From: a virus
Taxonomy: Duplodnaviria > Caudoviricetes
IMG/VR virus record: IMGVR_UViG_3300037780_000102
Span: 1 to 34,606 of that record
DNA: 34,606 bases
Reading direction: 5' to 3' (one strand)
Shown: positions 8,456 through 32,255 of the stretch, in pieces
How the letters are laid out: each line of letters begins with the position of its first letter
How positions within the stretch are numbered: the first letter of the stretch is position 1
Made by a program: the position numbers and the translations under genes
Notes under the pieces: model-generated
What the model was told of the DNA's origin: nothing
Databases searched by the model: none
What the model saw: only the letters and a program-made list of their open reading frames with translations

Positions 8456-8925
8456 CAGCTGAAATCCAGTTCGGGTGGTTGTGTGAAATCCAGCGAAGGC
8501 GCCGGGTCTGATTCTTTCTCCTGCACGCGCTTGCGACCGCGATTCAGCCGTGCACGGATCTCCTCATCACCGACGATGTGCACCTTCTCCGCAGAGTACG
8601 AGTCCACAGCAGCATGGCGACCGATCTCCCGCAAGGCTGCGTTCGACTGTGACAGCTTACCCTCCTGCCGAGCCAGCACATGATTGTCGACCAGCTGCTG
8701 CAGGTGCCAGTCGGCATCAATGCAGGCAAGGTCCAGGCGCTTGGACAGGATGTTCTCAATAGCTGTGCGCACGTCATCGCGCTGCAAGAGATCGTAACCG
8801 GTGCCAGGGCTGTAGCCGGCACGCACAGCCGCCTCGTCCGCCTTGAAGTCTTTGATGTACTCAATGACAAAGGCAGCGTGGCGGTCTGTTAGTCCGGTCA
8901 GGTCTCCCTGCTTAATGATGGGCAT
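8455..8925 (-). CDS. terS: Terminase small subunit
   Basis: 156 aa. LT.RH.AFV.EY..D....AA.RAGYS helix-turn-helix. Stop/start overlap with terL. Confidence 0.9.
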   Translation of the reverse strand: MPIIKQGDLTGLTDRHAAFVIEYIKDFKADEAAVRAGYSPGTGYDLLQRDDVRTAIENILSKRLDLACIDADWHLQQLVDNHVLARQEGKLSQSNAALREIGRHAAVDSYSAEKVHIVGDEEIRARLNRGRKRVQEKESDPAPSLDFTQPPELDFS

Positions 8926-8953
8926 CGCGTCCTCCCGACGGGATGTGTTTAAA
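8896..8953. repeat. 58-bp perfect direct repeat, copy 1 (terS RBS and first 10 codons)
   Basis: GGTCAGGTCTCCCTGCTTAATGATGGGCATCGCGTCCTCCCGACGGGATGTGTTTAAA, identical to 9254-9311. Confidence 0.95.
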
Positions 8954-8999: not shown

Positions 9000-9251
9000 T
9001 CACTTTCTTTGCTTGATTATGTGGACCAATTCCCTGGCTGAAACTTCAACGGCTCCAAACTCGACAGCGAGCTTACGCTTTTCCTTGCAAATATCAAAAT
9101 GCTCATAGGGTGTGTCGGGTCTCTGAATATGTCGCCTGTGGACCCCTATCCTATCGACCATGTTGATCAACTCCCTCCGAGTGTCGGCTATCATGTGACA
9201 CATTTTCATGTACCGATAGTTGTTCTCTTGGTCATCGACGTAAACAGCCAT
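9000..9251 (-). CDS. DUF4031-family protein
   Basis: 83 aa. MAVYVDD, CHMIADT..EL..M...IG, HFDI and A..GA motifs. Confidence 0.8.
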   Translation of the reverse strand: MAVYVDDQENNYRYMKMCHMIADTRRELINMVDRIGVHRRHIQRPDTPYEHFDICKEKRKLAVEFGAVEVSARELVHIIKQRK

Positions 9252-9253
9252 GG

Positions 9254-9311
9254 GGTCAGGTCTCCCTGCTTAATGATGGGCATCGCGTCCTCCCGACGGG
9301 ATGTGTTTAAA
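9254..9311. repeat. 58-bp perfect direct repeat, copy 2
   Basis: Identical to 8896-8953, offset by 358 bp. Confidence 0.95.
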
Positions 9312-10314: not shown

Positions 10315-10343
10315 TTGACACTAGTTCACAGTTCGTTCACAAT
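10315..10343 (+). promoter_or_regulatory. Early sigma70-like promoter
   Basis: TTGACA-N17-CACAAT, followed by the hairpin CGGGG-AATGG-CCCCG and an AGGAGG SD. Confidence 0.65.
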
Positions 10344-10401
10344 GGGCACCAAGAGATCGGGGAATGGCCCCGGCAGCAAGTAGCCCAGGAGGGCGGATCA
10401 C

Positions 10402-10554
10402 ATGACAGAACTTGAAATCAATGAGCTGAACGAGAAAGCTACACACAGTACACTGACACCGCTCGAAGAGCAGTGGCTCAAAGACAGCGTGGGTTTCATC
10501 GAGCAACTACAGATTGAACGTAACAAGGACGGCTGGAGCCCTTACTCAAAATGA
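10402..10554 (+). CDS. Hypothetical early protein (50 aa)
   Basis: Not in the ORF track. MTELEINELNEK...WSPYSK, AGGAGG SD, ATGA overlap with the next gene. Confidence 0.7.
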   Translation: MTELEINELNEKATHSTLTPLEEQWLKDSVGFIEQLQIERNKDGWSPYSK

Positions 10555-10778
10555 ACGACCTGATCTGGAGGAAAATTGAATCGGGTTGGTATTGCGCCCA
10601 GTGGCCTGATGCAGATTCTTTTCTTCACATCAGAGGTGGCTCACGGCAGGGATGGAACATTCACCTATCTGAGGAAGAGCTAGATTGGCGCGGTTTCCTG
10701 ATAGCAGCATGCATTGAAACCCTTATCGACGCAAAGATTGAAGCCGGTGAATACCGCAGAAAAATAACATCACGATAG
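10551..10778 (+). CDS. Hypothetical early protein
   Basis: 75 aa, coupled to the previous ORF. Its TAG stop overlaps hammerhead 1. Confidence 0.7.
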   Translation: MNDLIWRKIESGWYCAQWPDADSFLHIRGGSRQGWNIHLSEEELDWRGFLIAACIETLIDAKIEAGEYRRKITSR

Positions 10779-10838
10779 TCGAAACCCGGGCAACCGGGTC
10801 TGCAGGATCTGCCCCACCTGCACTGATGAGACAGGGCG
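10778..10838 (+). ncRNA. Type II hammerhead ribozyme 1 (predicted cleavage after C10800)
   Basis: GTC-GAAAC-CCGG(GCAA)CCGG-GTC^-TGCAGG(ATCTGCCCCA)CCTGCA-CTGATGA-GAC. Loop I GCCC can pair with the 3' tail GGGC. Confidence 0.93.
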
Positions 10839-10856
10839 AACAATGGAGATAGTCAC

Positions 10857-11216
10857 ATGAAATATTTCGTACACAATGCCGGGGGTCGAGCCTGGGCGTT
10901 CAACAAGAGCCTCCTGGAAGCACTACGCACAGCACGTGCTGTACCCGAGCAACGCCTGGACGCGAACATCGAGGCCGCAGAGTGTGTCTTCATCGATGGG
11001 GTGAAGGGCGAGAAGGAAGCGAACCTCTACGTTGCCGAGTGCAACCAGAACCACCAGGACTACCAGCCCCCGAGCGTCACTGTGACAGTGATCGCTGTCG
11101 AGGATGATGTGGAGCTGCTGGAAGCACTACGCTCAGCAAGTTTCATCCGGCACGCGGTTGGCCGGTTCAAGATCAGCATTGAACCCAGCGGTCGGATTCA
11201 CTTTCTGAAAGCATAG
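10857..11216 (+). CDS. Hypothetical early protein (between ribozymes 1 and 2)
   Basis: 119 aa. GGAGATAGTCAC-ATG start. Its TAG stop overlaps hammerhead 2. Confidence 0.8.
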   Translation: MKYFVHNAGGRAWAFNKSLLEALRTARAVPEQRLDANIEAAECVFIDGVKGEKEANLYVAECNQNHQDYQPPSVTVTVIAVEDDVELLEALRSASFIRHAVGRFKISIEPSGRIHFLKA

Positions 11217-11280
11217 TCGAAACGGGTCACCTGACCCGTCTGCCGGACCCCGATCCTCCCGGCACTGATGAGACAGGATC
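11216..11280 (+). ncRNA. Type II hammerhead ribozyme 2 (predicted cleavage after C11240)
   Basis: GTC-GAAAC-GGGTC(ACCT)GACCC-GTC^-TGCCGG(ACCCCGATCCTC)CCGGCA-CTGATGA-GAC. Loop I GATCCT can pair with the 3' tail AGGATC. Confidence 0.93.
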
Positions 11281-11297
11281 ATAAAGGAGATAGTCAC

Positions 11298-11669
11298 ATG
11301 AGCATTGAACTCAAGAATAAAGTGAAAGACGGTTCACCATACACAGTCTCAGGATGGAGAGCAGAACTGCACGTGGACGGAGAGAAAATAGGCACCGTAG
11401 CGACCACACACGTGCGGGGCAAGTATGCTATAAACCTGGTCGATGATGAAACCAGACAGTGGTGCGAGATCCAGGGCGGTTACCGTTCCATCGCAGCAGG
11501 GATTGAAGAGAAGGTGGGCGCTGGAAGAATTTGGCTGAATAAAAAGCAGAAGCAGGTAATCCATGGGGCAACCCTGATTAAGAAGATCGAAAAGACAAAG
11601 CAAGAGATTGAATCTCGGGACAATCAATTGACCAAGCTACGAGCCGAATTAGATAAGTTACTGAAATAG
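11298..11669 (+). CDS. Hypothetical early protein with C-terminal coiled coil (between ribozymes 2 and 3)
   Basis: Start reassigned to ATG 11298 after AGGAGATAGTCAC, giving 123 aa. Its TAG stop overlaps hammerhead 3. Confidence 0.8.
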   Translation: MSIELKNKVKDGSPYTVSGWRAELHVDGEKIGTVATTHVRGKYAINLVDDETRQWCEIQGGYRSIAAGIEEKVGAGRIWLNKKQKQVIHGATLIKKIEKTKQEIESRDNQLTKLRAELDKLLK

Positions 11670-11732
11670 TCGAAACGCCCGGAGGGGCGTCGTGTGAGAG
11701 GTGGCACCTCCGCACCTGATGAGACAAGCCAC
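11669..11732 (+). ncRNA. Type II hammerhead ribozyme 3 (predicted cleavage after C11691)
   Basis: GTC-GAAAC-GCCC(GGAG)GGGC-GTC^-GTGTG-A-GAG(GTGGCAC)CTC-CGCAC-CTGATGA-GAC. Loop I GTGGC can pair with the 3' tail GCCAC. Confidence 0.92.
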
Positions 11733-11745
11733 AGGAGATAGTCAC

Positions 11746-11925
11746 ATGAGCATTGACAATTACACAGCGGTAGCAGTTGCTGAAGGCTTTGAAGAAGCTG
11801 AGAGTGAGGAGCAGATCATCGAAGCGTGGCAGCACTTGCACGATACCGGTCTGGCTTACCAGCTACAGGGTAGCTTCGGTCGCACGGCCCAACGACTGAT
11901 TGAAGAGGGGGTAATCACAGCATGA
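11746..11925 (+). CDS. Small conserved phage protein (59 aa)
   Basis: Start reassigned to ATG 11746. The AWQ.L.DTG....LQG.FGRTA..LIE.G motif is common in phage early genes. Confidence 0.8.
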   Translation: MSIDNYTAVAVAEGFEEAESEEQIIEAWQHLHDTGLAYQLQGSFGRTAQRLIEEGVITA

Positions 11926-12601: not shown

Positions 12602-12982
12602 ATGAAACAACCGCAACGATACGAACACACGCACTGCTCCGATGCATGCTTTGACATGGAGGCCAATCACGAGGGGGATTATGTTCTCTACGAGGACTAC
12701 AAGAAACTGGAGCAAAGCGTTAGTGGCTCTACTGAGGCAAAAATAATCTACTGTGACCTCTACACCGTGGATGGATACAAAGAGCACACCTGTGAAGACC
12801 ATGACCTCGGTGAGGTTGAACTTCCTGAGAAAATCGATGAGCTGATAATCATGACTGATGTGAATGGTCGATTGAACATCATGGTTAACGGCAAAGAGAT
12901 ATTCAATTCCAAAGATCACGAACTGCCCAGCCCATCCGAGTGCCAGGAGTGCGAGCTGACAATCAGGAGAAAAGAACCATGA
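12602..12982 (+). CDS. Hypothetical protein
   Basis: 126 aa, GGGAGA SD. N-terminal RY...ME...GDYV.YED motif shared with 13389..13733. Confidence 0.7.
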   Translation: MKQPQRYEHTHCSDACFDMEANHEGDYVLYEDYKKLEQSVSGSTEAKIIYCDLYTVDGYKEHTCEDHDLGEVELPEKIDELIIMTDVNGRLNIMVNGKEIFNSKDHELPSPSECQECELTIRRKEP

Positions 12983-13389: not shown

Positions 13390-13733
13390 TGGACATTAAA
13401 AGATACAGAACAATAGCTCAACCGGAATGGGCAATGGAGGAGAATACTCAGGGTGAGTACGTCCGGTACGAGGACATCAAGCACCTGCTGCCCGAACGTG
13501 AAATAGTTGGCGGAAAGGGAACAACAATAACTGCGACAGAGATCCTACAGCATATGGGTAGGAAGAAAGAGGGGTTCCTCCATCCTGGAGGCACAGCTAT
13601 TATTGAAGAGCGAGTGCGCAATCTGGAAGAGTTTGTCGGCGAGCTATTGGATACATCGGTTCACGGGCCGGGGTCGGAGATGCGAGCCAAGCGCTTTCGC
13701 GCCAGACTGCAAACCATACTTGACAAAGGGTAA
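13389..13733 (+). CDS. Hypothetical protein
   Basis: 114 aa. AGGAGG SD, TGATG overlap. Confidence 0.7.
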   Translation: MDIKRYRTIAQPEWAMEENTQGEYVRYEDIKHLLPEREIVGGKGTTITATEILQHMGRKKEGFLHPGGTAIIEERVRNLEEFVGELLDTSVHGPGSEMRAKRFRARLQTILDKG

Positions 13734-15927: not shown

Positions 15928-16486
15928 ATGCACCTCGGTGTTGACTTACCCGGGCGGCAACATTGTCGACCTTGCTAACCCGGACCCGGACACTATTGTC
16001 CTGGATGACATAGCTCACCACCTGAGTATGCTCTGTCGTTTCACGGGTGCAGTGAGCGAGTTCTACTCCGTGGCCCAGCACAGTATCTATGTTATGACGC
16101 TGATCGCAAGATCTTATGACGACAAGAAACTCTGGCGCACAGCCCTCTTTCACGACGCCCCCGAGTACGTCACGGGGGACTGCAATAAGCCGTTCAAACT
16201 AATGCTGGGCGACGGCTACAAGGAAGTGGAAGATCGGATCTACTCGGTGATGGCGGAGAAGTTTGACCTGTATGACCCGATACCTACTCAGATAAAAATT
16301 GCCGATCAGCAGACTTATGTCAGGGAGCGAATCGATATAGCTAACTCAGTGAACATTTTCGAGGACGGAAGGCATGACAAGTACAAGGATGTAGAGGTGC
16401 CGGGTCTCCCACTTCTCGCGGGTTTCAGCCACAGTTACTGGGCCGACTATTTTAGAATGCACGCAAGATCTCTGGGAGTGGAATGA
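15908..16486 (+). CDS. HD-domain phosphohydrolase (YfbR/YfdR-like 5'-deoxynucleotidase)
   Basis: 192 aa. DIAHHLS..CRF.G, YSVAQHS, ALFHDAPEY..GD and K.AD motifs. Confidence 0.88.
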   Translation: MSEEKCECTSVLTYPGGNIVDLANPDPDTIVLDDIAHHLSMLCRFTGAVSEFYSVAQHSIYVMTLIARSYDDKKLWRTALFHDAPEYVTGDCNKPFKLMLGDGYKEVEDRIYSVMAEKFDLYDPIPTQIKIADQQTYVRERIDIANSVNIFEDGRHDKYKDVEVPGLPLLAGFSHSYWADYFRMHARSLGVE

Positions 16487-18255
16487 TGCCGACTGAGAAA
16501 AAGAATAGTAAGCGAGTAGTAAATAACGGCATGCTGGCGGGGAAAGTTATTCCGGCCGACCCTAAGGTCTTGGAATTTGCCGAGGTCGCCGGGTTCAGTG
16601 ACCAGCAATACAAGGTTTATCAGTGCTATGTTGACCTGACGGCAGAGAAGAAGGGGGAAAAGCCGGGTATGATCGAGCTGGCTGAGTACGTGGTCTCCCG
16701 GTTCAAATCTATCCGGAGCAACTTCGATGCCCCCAGCGCCAGCCGGTGTATAAGGCAGGCTCAGAACCGGGCGTCGGATGCCGGCTGGCAACCTCCCGCT
16801 GAGCTGAAGGTCGACCGAGACGTCGCCAACAAAAACCTCAGGACAGTGGAAAAGAAGCTGCGGAACCAAGTCTCCACCTACGTGGTCACATGGGCGCAGA
16901 ATGCCACCCCAGTGCACCAGGGCTTTCTCAAGTCCCTGGAGCAGTTCTGCAAGCACAGGGGCGCAGTGCTCCTGGTGATCGCCGGTCGCTACCGGAACCC
17001 GACCTCCATCTGGACGTGGCACAATCAGGAGAACGAGTACTGGGCCGAGGAGGTGGCGCCCTACCTGATCGAGGACAGGGTTGAGCTGAATGACAACCTC
17101 GTCGTAATGGGTGACATCAAGACGATACCTACAGCCGAGAACCCACTCTCCGGATTCCAGTCGATCACCCGGGACAAGTCCGGCATATTCGGACATGCGA
17201 AAGTGGCCCTGGGCGTGGTCGCCACACCCCAGAACACGATGCCGAAAATACTCACCACCACCGGGGCTGTCACTGAGCGGAACTATGTCGATGCGAAGGC
17301 CGGCAAGAAGGGTGAGTTCCACCACACCTTCGGTGCCACCGTGGTTGAGATCCAGGACGACCTGTTCCACATGCGCCAGATCAATGCCTGTGACGACGGC
17401 AGCTTCATCGATCTGAAGCACGAGTACAAGCCCAACGGTTTCAAGCTCGCCGCCAGGGCGAAGGGTATAGTCCTCGGCGACAGTCACGGCGATTTCATGG
17501 ACCCGGTCTGCGAGAAGGCGATCTTCGGCAAGGGCGGGATGGTGGACTTCTTCGAGCCGGAGAACATAGTATTCCACGATGTCTACGACGGCTACTCCGG
17601 CAGTCATCACCACAAGGGTCAGATGTTCACCAAGCTGGCGAAGCGTCGGAGCAACCGTGATGACGTCCGAGGCGAGGTGATCAGGACACTGGACAAGTTC
17701 AGCAGCTGGATGAGGGATGATACGAATTTCTGGCTCGTTGACTCGAACCACAATCAGCATCTGGTGACGTGGATACAGGAGACTGATCCGCGCAAGGATC
17801 TGGTGAACCTACCCTTCTGGGTCGAGATCGTGGGCATGATGGAGCCAGGTGTCATCATGACCAAGAACGGTGCCAAGTATCCCAATCCCTTACAGCTGAT
17901 GGCTGAGAAGCACTTAGGCAAGGACAAGAGGGTGCGATTCCTGACCCGGGACGACCGTCTCATGATCGCCGGCATCGATTGCGGCAACCACGGTCACCGA
18001 GGACCCAATGGCGCGAGAGGAACTATTCGTAATTATGCCTTCCTGGGGGTGAAGACTATCACCGGGCACGGGCACTCCCCCGGAATCCACCACGGTCATT
18101 ACCGGGTCGGGACTAACACTTACCTCGAGCTGGAATATAACGAGGGACCCAGCTCATGGTTGCAGACAGACTGTGTGATCTACGCCAATGGCAAGCGATC
18201 ACTCATTCACAAGATCAATGGAAACTGGCGAGCAGTGAGGAGAAGGAAGCAGTGA
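16483..18255 (+). CDS. T5 A1-like protein (metallophosphoesterase-fold nuclease)
   Basis: 590 aa. T.AQNATPVH..F, IFGH.K, PKI..TTG.VT..NY...KAGKK.EFHH..GA.VVE, LGDSH, HD..D, SNH, HGH.GPNG.RG and GH.HSP motifs. Confidence 0.8.
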   Translation: MMPTEKKNSKRVVNNGMLAGKVIPADPKVLEFAEVAGFSDQQYKVYQCYVDLTAEKKGEKPGMIELAEYVVSRFKSIRSNFDAPSASRCIRQAQNRASDAGWQPPAELKVDRDVANKNLRTVEKKLRNQVSTYVVTWAQNATPVHQGFLKSLEQFCKHRGAVLLVIAGRYRNPTSIWTWHNQENEYWAEEVAPYLIEDRVELNDNLVVMGDIKTIPTAENPLSGFQSITRDKSGIFGHAKVALGVVATPQNTMPKILTTTGAVTERNYVDAKAGKKGEFHHTFGATVVEIQDDLFHMRQINACDDGSFIDLKHEYKPNGFKLAARAKGIVLGDSHGDFMDPVCEKAIFGKGGMVDFFEPENIVFHDVYDGYSGSHHHKGQMFTKLAKRRSNRDDVRGEVIRTLDKFSSWMRDDTNFWLVDSNHNQHLVTWIQETDPRKDLVNLPFWVEIVGMMEPGVIMTKNGAKYPNPLQLMAEKHLGKDKRVRFLTRDDRLMIAGIDCGNHGHRGPNGARGTIRNYAFLGVKTITGHGHSPGIHHGHYRVGTNTYLELEYNEGPSSWLQTDCVIYANGKRSLIHKINGNWRAVRRRKQ

Positions 18256-31031: not shown

Positions 31032-32255
31032 TCACAGATGAACAGGGATCGTGCAGATCTTGTACACCTTGCCTCCGAGTAAATCATCACCTGGGGTCAT
31101 TGCAGCATAGATCTCCCCACCAGCCATGCTCGACATATCCAGCCACTGTACAATCCTGCAGAAGACATCGTCATCAAGGGGCACGTTCCTGAACGTGGGT
31201 TCAAGATTAGGTATCGATGCCACCGGTGCCCAGTTGTCGGCGATTGAGTTGTAGTTGTACTTCGACCCATCCAGCTCATCCGGTAACATGACACCGCCGC
31301 CCCGGTATCTGGGTAGGCGCATGTACAGCTCACCGTCTATCACACCGCCGATCCAGAGGTTGCCGACAGTGCCGCGTTCCTCGGCAGTTGGCACGTACCG
31401 GGCATTGAGTCGGAACCGGTTGATGAACTCGAACTTCCAACCAGGTGTCTCGGGGATCTCCCAGCCACGGAAGCTGCGGACAATCCACGCCTCAAAGAAA
31501 GGCTCATCGACAATGTGCCAGGGTAGCAGGCCGAAACCAGCATCACCCCAGTCAGTGCCCCATGAGTTGAGCACGATGAAACCACCGAGGCTCTTTGACG
31601 AGCCCACGATTAGCATGGCGTGACCACCGATGCTATCACCAGCCTCACGAACTGTCTCATAGTCATGCTCCAACAGGGGGCCGCTGAAGTGTCTGAGAGA
31701 GTCGGTGACAGTGACCCCGAATCCCACTGGCAAACCCTCCTGCAGGCACGACTTCACCCGGTGGATCTTCTCCGAGCGCGATCCGTCATTGACACGGGAG
31801 CGCACCACAGCCTCGTACCGATCGACACGGTTCTCAAAGGCAAGAGGATGGATGTCATCCGGTGGCAGAACCTTCGACTTACTGGTGTCATAGGGGTACT
31901 GCTGCTCGGTCGGTGTGCCATATTTCCTGCCGACCTTGTACAGGTCACGGATGAACACACCGGAATCCTGCAACCGGCCTTCGATGTGCTTTGTCATCAC
32001 GTAGGAGTAAAGCCTGGAATACTCCCTGCGCACACCGTTCTGGTTGTCGATGTGCTCGATCTGGTTGGTGAACATGTTCCCACCACAGCTGCCGATGTGC
32101 AGCTGGTCAGGAACCGAGAGCACGTCATCGCGCAGATCGATCTCGTTGTCGATCTGCTCAGGGGTGAAGGGTGACCGGTAGGGAATGTCCCTCAGGTCAA
32201 CCGGTGACGGTTGGATGCTGTTCCTTGTGAACTCGTGCAGGCTGGGTGCGGGCAT
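31032..32255 (-). CDS. Papain-family (C1) cysteine peptidase with C-terminal extension
   Basis: 407 aa. DLR, DQ..IGSC (oxyanion Q and catalytic C), GGHAM (H), NSWG.DWG..G (N). AGGAGG SD. Confidence 0.88.
   Translation of the reverse strand: MPAPSLHEFTRNSIQPSPVDLRDIPYRSPFTPEQIDNEIDLRDDVLSVPDQLHIGSCGGNMFTNQIEHIDNQNGVRREYSRLYSYVMTKHIEGRLQDSGVFIRDLYKVGRKYGTPTEQQYPYDTSKSKVLPPDDIHPLAFENRVDRYEAVVRSRVNDGSRSEKIHRVKSCLQEGLPVGFGVTVTDSLRHFSGPLLEHDYETVREAGDSIGGHAMLIVGSSKSLGGFIVLNSWGTDWGDAGFGLLPWHIVDEPFFEAWIVRSFRGWEIPETPGWKFEFINRFRLNARYVPTAEERGTVGNLWIGGVIDGELYMRLPRYRGGGVMLPDELDGSKYNYNSIADNWAPVASIPNLEPTFRNVPLDDDVFCRIVQWLDMSSMAGGEIYAAMTPGDDLLGGKVYKICTIPVHL

What the first reader, a model, noticed from the sequence alone, without database searches (positions are those of the whole stretch)
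10778..11732. Three tandem type II hammerhead ribozymes punctuate the early operon
Seen in sequence: three intergenic elements share the full hammerhead core (CUGAUGA-G, C-GAAA-C, GUC cleavage triplet) with an open 3-bp stem II (GUC/GAC). Stems I and III differ in sequence between copies but keep their pairing. Each loop I has its own complement just 3' of stem II (GCCC/GGGC, GAUCCU/AGGAUC, GUGGC/GCCAC), so the pseudoknot covaries. Established: this is the type II hammerhead layout, and such ribozymes have been reported near phage genes, with poorly understood function. Inference: compensatory changes mean all three are selected for activity and cut the early transcript after 10800, 11240 and 11691. 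This would be protein-free mRNA processing analogous to RNase III cutting of the T7 early mRNA.
Basis: partly seen in the sequence, partly recalled or inferred. Interest (0 to 1): 0.92.

Follow-up and report, generated by a model that had tools for sequence, protein, structure and literature searches.

The report
Hammerhead ribozymes punctuating a phage operon
Three hammerhead-type RNA motifs fill the gaps between small genes of an uncultured phage, each wedged between one gene's stop codon and the next gene's ribosome-binding site, and likely cut one long message into hairpin-capped gene-sized pieces, an arrangement described in phages since 2011.

Summary
Observation confirmed. Rfam Hammerhead_II (RF02276) hits all three copies: 39.8 and 39.0 bits (above the 37-bit cut-off) and 32.8 bits (below it, E 0.001). 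Cores are perfect, predicted cut sites are 10800, 11240 and 11691, and the pseudoknot covaries. The layout is general: in viral contigs the stop lies 0-8 nt before the core in 107 of 142 and 89 of 122 other ribozymes (random positions: about 5). Best reading: constitutive cutting into linear gene-sized mRNAs with hairpin ends, a natural RiboJ-like insulator. Cleavage and benefit are untested. Triple hammerheads flanking prophage genes were described and shown to cleave by Perreault 2011 (PMC3088659), and this scan has found the layout repeatedly on other DNA. Cleavage-gated translation and a conserved decoy helix were not supported; enrichment of gene-swap breakpoints at ribozymes was inconclusive. 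New member of a known kind.

The parts
10315..10343 (+). sigma-70-like promoter (TTGACA-17-CACAAT, 10 of 12), the only + strand site found upstream of the array; start near 10350 inferred
   Evidence: consensus match only (4 sites in the region, shuffles 5.3)
10402..10554 (+). ORF, 50 aa, no family
10551..10778 (+). ORF, 75 aa, no family; its TAG supplies the G of HH1's stem II strand
10778..10837 (+). HH1, type II hammerhead; predicted cut after 10800; pseudoknot GCCC/GGGC
   Evidence: (32.8 bits, E 0.001, below gathering)
10845..10859 (+). shared leader GGAGATAGTCACATG (SD + ATG), copy 1
10857..11216 (+). ORF, 119 aa, orphan, between HH1 and HH2
   Evidence: (only itself)
11216..11280 (+). 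HH2, type II hammerhead; predicted cut after 11240; pseudoknot GAUCCU/AGGAUC
   Evidence: (39.8 bits)
11285..11308 (+). shared leader copy 2; 24 nt identical to copy 3, running into the first codons
   Evidence: family D3
11298..11669 (+). ORF, 123 aa from the SD-led ATG, orphan, between HH2 and HH3
   Evidence: (only itself)
11669..11732 (+). HH3, type II hammerhead; predicted cut after 11691; pseudoknot UGGC/GCCA (5 bp if stem I opens)
   Evidence: (39.0 bits)
11733..11756 (+). shared leader copy 3
11746..11925 (+). ORF, 59 aa, DUF7417 / phrog_3908, first gene after HH3

Best explanation
Three type II hammerhead motifs each fill a whole gene junction of this phage operon (stop codon, ribozyme, Shine-Dalgarno, ATG) and likely self-cleave constitutively, turning a predicted single transcript into linear pieces that would each begin with the same kind of hairpin-capped 5'-OH leader. 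Shown in sequence: cores, stems, pseudoknots, TAG overlap, identical leaders, cut site always 3' of the stop. Inferred: transcription from the promoter-like site at 10315-10343; cuts after 10800, 11240, 11691 giving about 450 nt (two ORFs), 440 nt (119-aa ORF), 451 nt (123-aa ORF) and a long 3' piece; the 3-bp open stem II lets products fall apart so that cutting is one-way; each upstream piece keeps its stop plus the stem III hairpin at its 3' end; each downstream piece starts with stem I and the pseudoknot, then SD and AUG. Likely purpose (inferred): insulation, i.e. each swappable accessory gene gets a standard, stable, independently translated message whatever lies upstream, as synthetic RiboJ does.
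For: Rfam and core consensus. Pseudoknot covariation in the window (4/6/5 pairs against 2-3 when swapped) and in 89 of 111 other ribozymes with a loop of 5 nt or more (swap control mean 20.7, max 34; 52 different helices). Junction grammar in unique non-window ribozymes: upstream stop 0-8 nt before GAAA in 107 of 142 (GUC stem II), 89 of 122 (GCC) and 11 of 17 (CUC), random positions mean about 5, max 11; SD-led start within 45 nt in 108 of 142, 93 of 122, 16 of 17; stop inside the ribozyme in only 5, 2 and 0. Perreault 2011: three tandem prophage arrangements cleaved in vitro, the Agrobacterium triple also in E. coli; no circles or spliced products detected; a halovirus early transcript 5' end maps within 3 nt of a hammerhead cut. 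RiboJ raised transcript about twofold and protein two- to tenfold in E. coli.
Against: No cleavage or RNA-end data for this phage. HH1 is below Rfam's cut-off. Forcing stem II costs 2.4, 3.9 and 6.4 kcal/mol against the free minimum-energy fold (pseudoknot and core contacts not modelled), so HH3 especially may fold slowly. Genome compaction alone could explain stop-codon abutment; my control is random positions, not other intergenic elements. 5'-OH products are not always stable: glmS cleavage lowers expression. The purpose step has no direct evidence; a 2019 review calls bacterial ribozyme roles largely elusive. The promoter-like site is no more than chance would give in number.
Confidence: 0.65

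Rival explanations
1. Ribosome-gated anti-polarity device: a ribosome ending at the TAG covers GUC-GAAA and blocks folding, so cutting happens mainly when the upstream gene is not being translated, severing the nascent RNA and dropping Rho before it can stop RNA polymerase.
For: TAG overlaps stem II in 3 of 3 copies; stop 0-8 nt from the core in 107 of 142 and 89 of 122 other ribozymes. The footprint of a terminating ribosome reaching several nt past the stop is my own knowledge.
Against: Compaction gives the same geometry. Termination is brief, so gating would be a delay only (inference). The paper search on hammerhead + Rho + nascent + polarity listed nothing on natural phage ribozymes among 12 of 122 papers listed.
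Confidence: 0.12
2. The ribozyme-leader units are kept mainly as short homologies at which accessory genes are gained, lost and swapped (PeSL-like); cutting is secondary.
For: Leaders identical over 15 nt in 3 copies and 24 nt in two, into the coding sequence. In other phages homology ends at the unit: L075/L112 97% identical up to the pseudoknot tail then unrelated; L020/L033 and L080/L054 up to the start codon; L004/L054 begins 7 nt before GAAA (8 pairs picked from 17 one-sided pairs).
Against: With a control, homology broke at 6 of 24 ribozyme-junction observations and 25 of 133 ordinary-junction observations (26 locus pairs in 9 clusters, not independent; missed ribozymes may sit in the ordinary class). 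Recombination does not explain perfect cores and covarying stems and pseudoknots. No joined variant of the array in three contig sets (two are patchy).
Confidence: 0.1
3. Cutting destabilises or down-tunes the accessory messages (glmS-like), shutting early genes off quickly.
For: glmS cleavage reduces expression; cuts create new ends on every piece.
Against: Both new ends carry hairpins (stem III, stem I); every unit provides a full SD and start; RiboJ raises expression in E. coli. Host and its RNases are unknown.
Confidence: 0.07
4. Excised single-gene pieces religate into circular mRNAs: because stem II is GUC/GAC in all copies, the 5' end (stem I, core, pseudoknot) and 3' end (GAAA, stem III) of each piece can rebuild a chimeric hammerhead.
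For: Stem II invariant in 3 of 3; geometry follows from the type II layout.
Against: Only 3 pairs join the ends. Perreault looked for circles and spliced products and detected none. Stem II differs between neighbouring copies in other arrays, e.g. L048 and L050. No RNA ligase among the 54 ORFs scanned with PHROGs, though the contig may be incomplete and a host ligase is possible.
Confidence: 0.04
5. Cleavage-gated translation through a decoy: the leader's GUCACAU pairs with the core's AUGAGAC and switches the start codon on or off with cutting.
For: The helix appears in the minimum-energy folds of HH2 and HH3 and of all three 3' fragments; the upstream 5-mer recurs in the leader in 3 of 3 window copies and 0 of 120 others.
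Against: Duplex only -3.7 kcal/mol; 7 of 120 other ribozymes reach that, shuffled leaders 8.7; cost of opening SD-AUG changes by under 0.8 kcal/mol between precursor and product in all three.
Confidence: 0.03

Closest known systems
Clustered hammerhead ribozymes flanking single genes or short gene blocks in prophages (Perreault et al. 2011, PMC3088659; triple arrangements of Clostridium scindens, Azorhizobium caulinodans, Agrobacterium tumefaciens)
   Same: Several hammerheads in close succession between small phage genes; type II layout with pseudoknot; proposed processing into operon- or gene-length mRNAs.
   Different: New phage and orphan flanked genes; identical SD-start leader after each copy and TAG overlap, which the passages I read do not mention (figures and supplements not seen); activity untested here.
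Rfam RF02276 Hammerhead_II (clan CL00010)
   Same: Full-length model match 1-66/66 for all three copies.
   Different: Stem II is 3 bp (one-base insertion against the model); HH1 falls 4 bits short of the gathering score.
RiboJ synthetic ribozyme insulator (Clifton et al., 10.1101/317875)
   Same: Self-cleavage removes upstream RNA and leaves a standard hairpin leader before the RBS; raises mRNA and protein in E. coli.
   Different: Engineered and placed after a promoter; here natural, repeated between genes; works-like comparison only.
RNase III processing of the T7 early mRNA (recalled, not looked up)
   Same: One early transcript cut between genes into gene-sized mRNAs with end hairpins.
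   Different: Needs a host protein and leaves 5'-monophosphate/3'-OH ends (recalled); hammerheads leave 5'-OH and 2',3'-cyclic phosphate.
PeSL cassettes of T4-type phages (Arbiol et al. 2010, PMC2839356; listing and start of abstract only)
   Same: Repeated intergenic expression units next to variable orphan genes.
   Different: PeSLs are promoter/stem-loop units; here no promoter-like site lies in the units, and breakpoint enrichment was inconclusive.

Membership tests
Type II hammerhead ribozyme (structural class) | Catalytic core CUGANGA, GAAA and UH cleavage site | tested here: met
   CUGAUGA, GAAA and GUC in 3 of 3
Type II hammerhead ribozyme (structural class) | Stems I and III closed by loops, stem II open | tested here: met
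   Stem III 5/7/5, stem I 6/6/5 contiguous pairs, stem II 3 bp open; definition
Type II hammerhead ribozyme (structural class) | Loop I pseudoknot with the sequence 3' of stem II | tested here: met
   4/6/5 cognate against 2-3 swapped pairs; predicted pairing, not probed
Type II hammerhead ribozyme (structural class) | Mg2+-dependent self-cleavage after C17 | not testable with these tools
   needs in vitro transcription or end mapping
Rfam RF02276 (HH2, HH3) | Score at or above the 37-bit gathering threshold | tested here: met
   39.8 and 39.0 bits
Rfam RF02276 (HH1) | Score at or above the 37-bit gathering threshold | tested here: not met
   32.8 bits, E 0.001; HH1 is not filed as a formal Rfam member, only as a type II hammerhead by core and fold
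Clustered phage/prophage hammerheads (Perreault 2011) | Several hammerheads in close succession flanking single genes or short blocks in a phage genome | tested here: met
   3 copies about 440-450 nt apart, one ORF between each; terminase, capsid, tail and polymerase genes in the window
Clustered phage/prophage hammerheads (Perreault 2011) | Transcript cut into the predicted pieces | not testable with these tools
   no RNA data for this DNA could be examined
Retrozyme / viroid-like circular RNA | Ribozymes inside long direct repeats around a unit released as a circle (definition recalled) | tested here: not met
   longest repeat shared by the units is 24 nt; interiors are unrelated ORFs; circles themselves not testable
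PeSL cassettes | Promoter within each repeated unit | tested here: not met
   no promoter-like site in the three units
PeSL cassettes | Gene gain, loss and swap concentrated at the units | tested here: inconclusive
   examples exist in other phages but 6 of 24 against 25 of 133 at ordinary junctions; no close relative of this phage found

The most novel reading that the evidence does not exclude
The stop-codon-fused hammerhead is a translation-sensing insulator: the ribosome ending the upstream gene sits on stem II and GAAA, so the ribozyme fires preferentially on untranslated stretches, cuts the nascent RNA, removes Rho's foothold and hands the next gene a fresh stable leader. Phages would thus make arrays of foreign accessory genes immune to polarity without any antitermination protein, which would answer why unrelated ribozyme classes crowd these junctions.
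Probability: 0.12. Interest if true: 0.75.

Novelty: new member of a known kind. Interest (0 to 1): 0.28.

Why it matters
What self-cleaving ribozymes do in bacteria and phages is still described as largely elusive (review PMC6765202). This locus does not change what is known, but it is a compact test piece: promoter-like site, three perfect ribozymes and standard leaders in 1.6 kb. The measured grammar (stop within 8 nt of the core in about three quarters of other copies for two stem II variants; SD-led start within 45 nt in about three quarters) narrows the candidate functions to insulation, stability control or polarity relief, all testable with reporter constructs in E. coli. Natural stop-ribozyme-RBS units are also ready-made parts for synthetic operons.

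Tried and rejected
Close relatives: blastn against 50,697 annotated phages gave one 42-nt hit in a capsid gene; a core-plus-leader pattern gave 3 loci, all the same non-ribozyme sequence; 27 terminase-relative loci (38-60% identity) held no type II hammerhead by my finder in the DNA fetched; the DUF7717 protein gave one 14-residue match. Function of the flanked genes: no PHROG, Pfam (best E 0.017) or NCBIfam family, only themselves in the protein collection, no usable Atlas hit. Expression: no RNA holder listed; three DNA contig sets showed no differences or joints within the array, one may be the source sample and two cover it only in patches. Decoy helix and cleavage-gated translation: not enriched, no change in opening cost. 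ATAGTC repeated on both sides of each unit as a target-site duplication: seen only here, 0 of 120 others; left unexplained. Breakpoint enrichment: not shown. SNORD99 hit at 11435-11476 (E 0.71) is chance. No other Rfam family in the window at gathering level. Rows dropped: of 202 finder hits 164 unique, 156 with 200-nt flanks (these counts include the window's 3 copies); of 313 unique over all scans 295 used after removing the window's 3 and those near locus ends; 111 of 161 non-window ribozymes had a loop of 5 nt or more; 17 same-contig loci left out. The sets are biased by the search patterns (fixed stem II) and hold related phages. Papers opened without use: PMC10879173, PMC7858274, 10.1101/2024.07.19.604288 (passages).

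Full report
Observation. Rfam RF02276 Hammerhead_II matches 11215-11282 (39.8 bits) and 11668-11734 (39.0 bits) above the 37-bit gathering score, and 10777-10840 at 32.8 bits, E 0.001, below it; all cover the whole model. A structure-aware finder (GAAA, stem III, UH, stem I, CUGANGA, stem II) finds exactly these 3 in the window and none in 100 first-order resamplings. Counting from GAAA puts C17 at 10800, 11240 and 11691. Stems I and III differ in sequence and keep pairing; stem II is GUC/GAC in 3 of 3 and is uninformative for covariation. Each loop I pairs with its own tail over 4, 6 and 5 bases but with the other tails over 2-3. In HH3 the 5-bp version needs two inner pairs of the predicted stem I to open.

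Setting. The window is the whole held assembly, one 34.6-kb contig without an exact terminal overlap. It carries terminase, head-tail adaptor, major head, tail, primase, DNA polymerase, helicase and exonuclease genes; the gene set reminds me of BPP-1/APSE-type podoviruses (recalled, not tested). Runs holding it are labelled pond metagenome, and one 6.4-kb contig at depth 88 spans the array without differences, though it may be the source sample. After a long stretch without confident genes next to the terminase genes, a sigma-70-like site (TTGACA-17-CACAAT, 10315-10343) points into a run of small + strand ORFs; no + strand terminator-like site follows it up to 16500. 'Early operon' is an inference from this layout. 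The ORFs flanked by the ribozymes (119 and 123 aa) are orphans; the gene after HH3 is DUF7417 and the next DUF7717.

Each unit fills its junction completely. The upstream ORF ends in TAG whose G is the first base of the stem II strand (TAG-TC-GAAA; offset 2 in 3 of 3), and 23-27 nt after the core comes an SD-led ATG within an identical 15-mer at 10845, 11286 and 11734; copies 2 and 3 agree over 24 nt, into the first codons. Cutting therefore always falls 3' of the stop, leaves the upstream gene whole with stem III at its 3' end, and gives the downstream gene a leader of stem I, pseudoknot, SD and AUG.

How general. Arrays of 7-9 copies occur (L045, L048). Among 295 unique non-window ribozymes with flanks, the upstream stop lies 0-8 nt before GAAA in 107 of 142 (GUC), 89 of 122 (GCC) and 11 of 17 (CUC), against about 5 at random positions (max 11); an SD-led start lies within 45 nt in 108, 93 and 16; the stop is inside the ribozyme in 5, 2 and 0; 18 of 295 have an open frame of 120 codons or more through the core. 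The pseudoknot has 4 or more Watson-Crick pairs in 89 of 111, swap control mean 20.7, max 34, with 52 different helices. Caveats: patterns fix stem II, related phages are not independent, and dense packing alone could bring stops close.

Mechanism. Shown: sequence, fold potential, covariation, junction grammar. Inferred: cleavage (14 of 18 consensus hammerheads were active in Perreault's tests; three tandem arrangements cleaved at all sites, one also in E. coli), product sizes of about 450, 440 and 451 nt plus a long 3' piece, and one-way cutting because only 3 pairs of stem II hold the products. Likely purpose: insulation and stabilisation of each accessory gene's message, as with RiboJ, which raised transcript about twofold and protein two- to tenfold in E. 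coli. Against: forcing stem II costs 2.4, 3.9 and 6.4 kcal/mol over the free fold, pseudoknot not counted; glmS shows that cleavage can lower expression; host unknown.

Rivals tested. (a) A decoy helix between the leader (GUCACAU) and the core (AUGAGAC) appears in predicted folds but is weak (-3.7 kcal/mol), not enriched elsewhere (7 of 120; shuffled 8.7) and cutting changes the cost of opening SD-AUG by under 0.8 kcal/mol: rejected. (b) Recombination cassettes: in 8 pairs chosen from 17 one-sided pairs, several near-identical phages switch to unrelated genes at the unit, but a control gave breaks at 6 of 24 ribozyme-junction and 25 of 133 ordinary-junction observations from 26 locus pairs in 9 clusters: inconclusive, at most a by-product. 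(c) Circles: halves are interchangeable here, but Perreault detected no circular or spliced products and stem II varies within other arrays. (d) Ribosome-gated cutting that relieves Rho polarity fits the stop-codon geometry and is not excluded; it is the novel case.

Comparison and novelty. Works like: clustered prophage hammerheads, RiboJ and, loosely, RNase III cutting of T7 early RNA (recalled). Membership: type II hammerhead by core, topology and pseudoknot, 3 of 3; formal Rfam member, 2 of 3; cleavage untested. Papers seen: PMC3088659 passages and part 1 of 2 of the Discussion, its figures and supplements not seen and they may show the stop-codon overlap; PMC6765202 passages; 10.1101/317875 part 1 of 2, covering the main text; PMC2839356 listing and start of abstract. 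My searches listed no paper that measures the stop-ribozyme-RBS grammar, but the library lacks most subscription journals. Earlier notes of this scan report the same layout, including stop-codon fusion and standard leaders, in several other genomes; none concerns this genome. Verdict: real, clean, known kind; interest 0.28.

Noticed in passing
window 8896-8953 and 9254-9311: A perfect 58-nt direct repeat holding the terminase small subunit leader and first ten codons brackets a DUF4031 gene (9000-9251, - strand), as if the gene came in with a duplication of the terS start; contig depth of the repeat is double (194 against 88-93), so it is real in that run.
   Followed up: partly
window 10797-10837 (HH1) and L014, L033, L097, L102, L020: HH1's stem I, core and tail are 95-98% identical over 40-42 nt to ribozymes of phages with quite different leaders; either units travel between distant phages or this is a favoured solution (TGCCC is among the commonest pseudoknot helices).
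   Followed up: partly
window 10775-10780/10849-10854, 11213-11218/11290-11295, 11666-11671/11738-11743: ATAGTC stands on both sides of each ribozyme-SD unit; removing a unit between them would leave stop, 4 nt, ATG. Not seen in 120 other ribozymes; unexplained.
   Followed up: partly
window about 10350-11691: The three predicted upstream pieces are nearly equal in length (about 451, 440, 451 nt); spacing in other arrays varies widely, so probably chance.
   Followed up: no
L045 (7 copies), L048 (9 copies), L200/L201 (7-8 pattern matches), L050 (5 copies): Much longer type II hammerhead arrays, some mixing stem II sequences, would be better test cases than this triple.
   Followed up: partly
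L004, L010, L014, L020, L033, L054, L080; L064, L075, L112: Families of 90-97% identical phages that differ in the gene right after or before a hammerhead unit.
   Followed up: partly
window 31032-32255 (-): 407-aa protein with a papain-family (Peptidase_C1) domain, E 4.7e-09, next to tail fibre genes.
   Followed up: no
window 10911-10937 and 11115-11141; 12656-12709 and 13434-13487: Internal 27-nt repeat (89%) in the 119-aa orphan and a 54-nt 70% repeat shared by two downstream ORFs.
   Followed up: no
window 16483-18255 (+): 590-aa ORF labelled DNA transfer protein (phrog_1745, E 7e-150) lies in the rightward accessory region, away from the structural genes.
   Followed up: no
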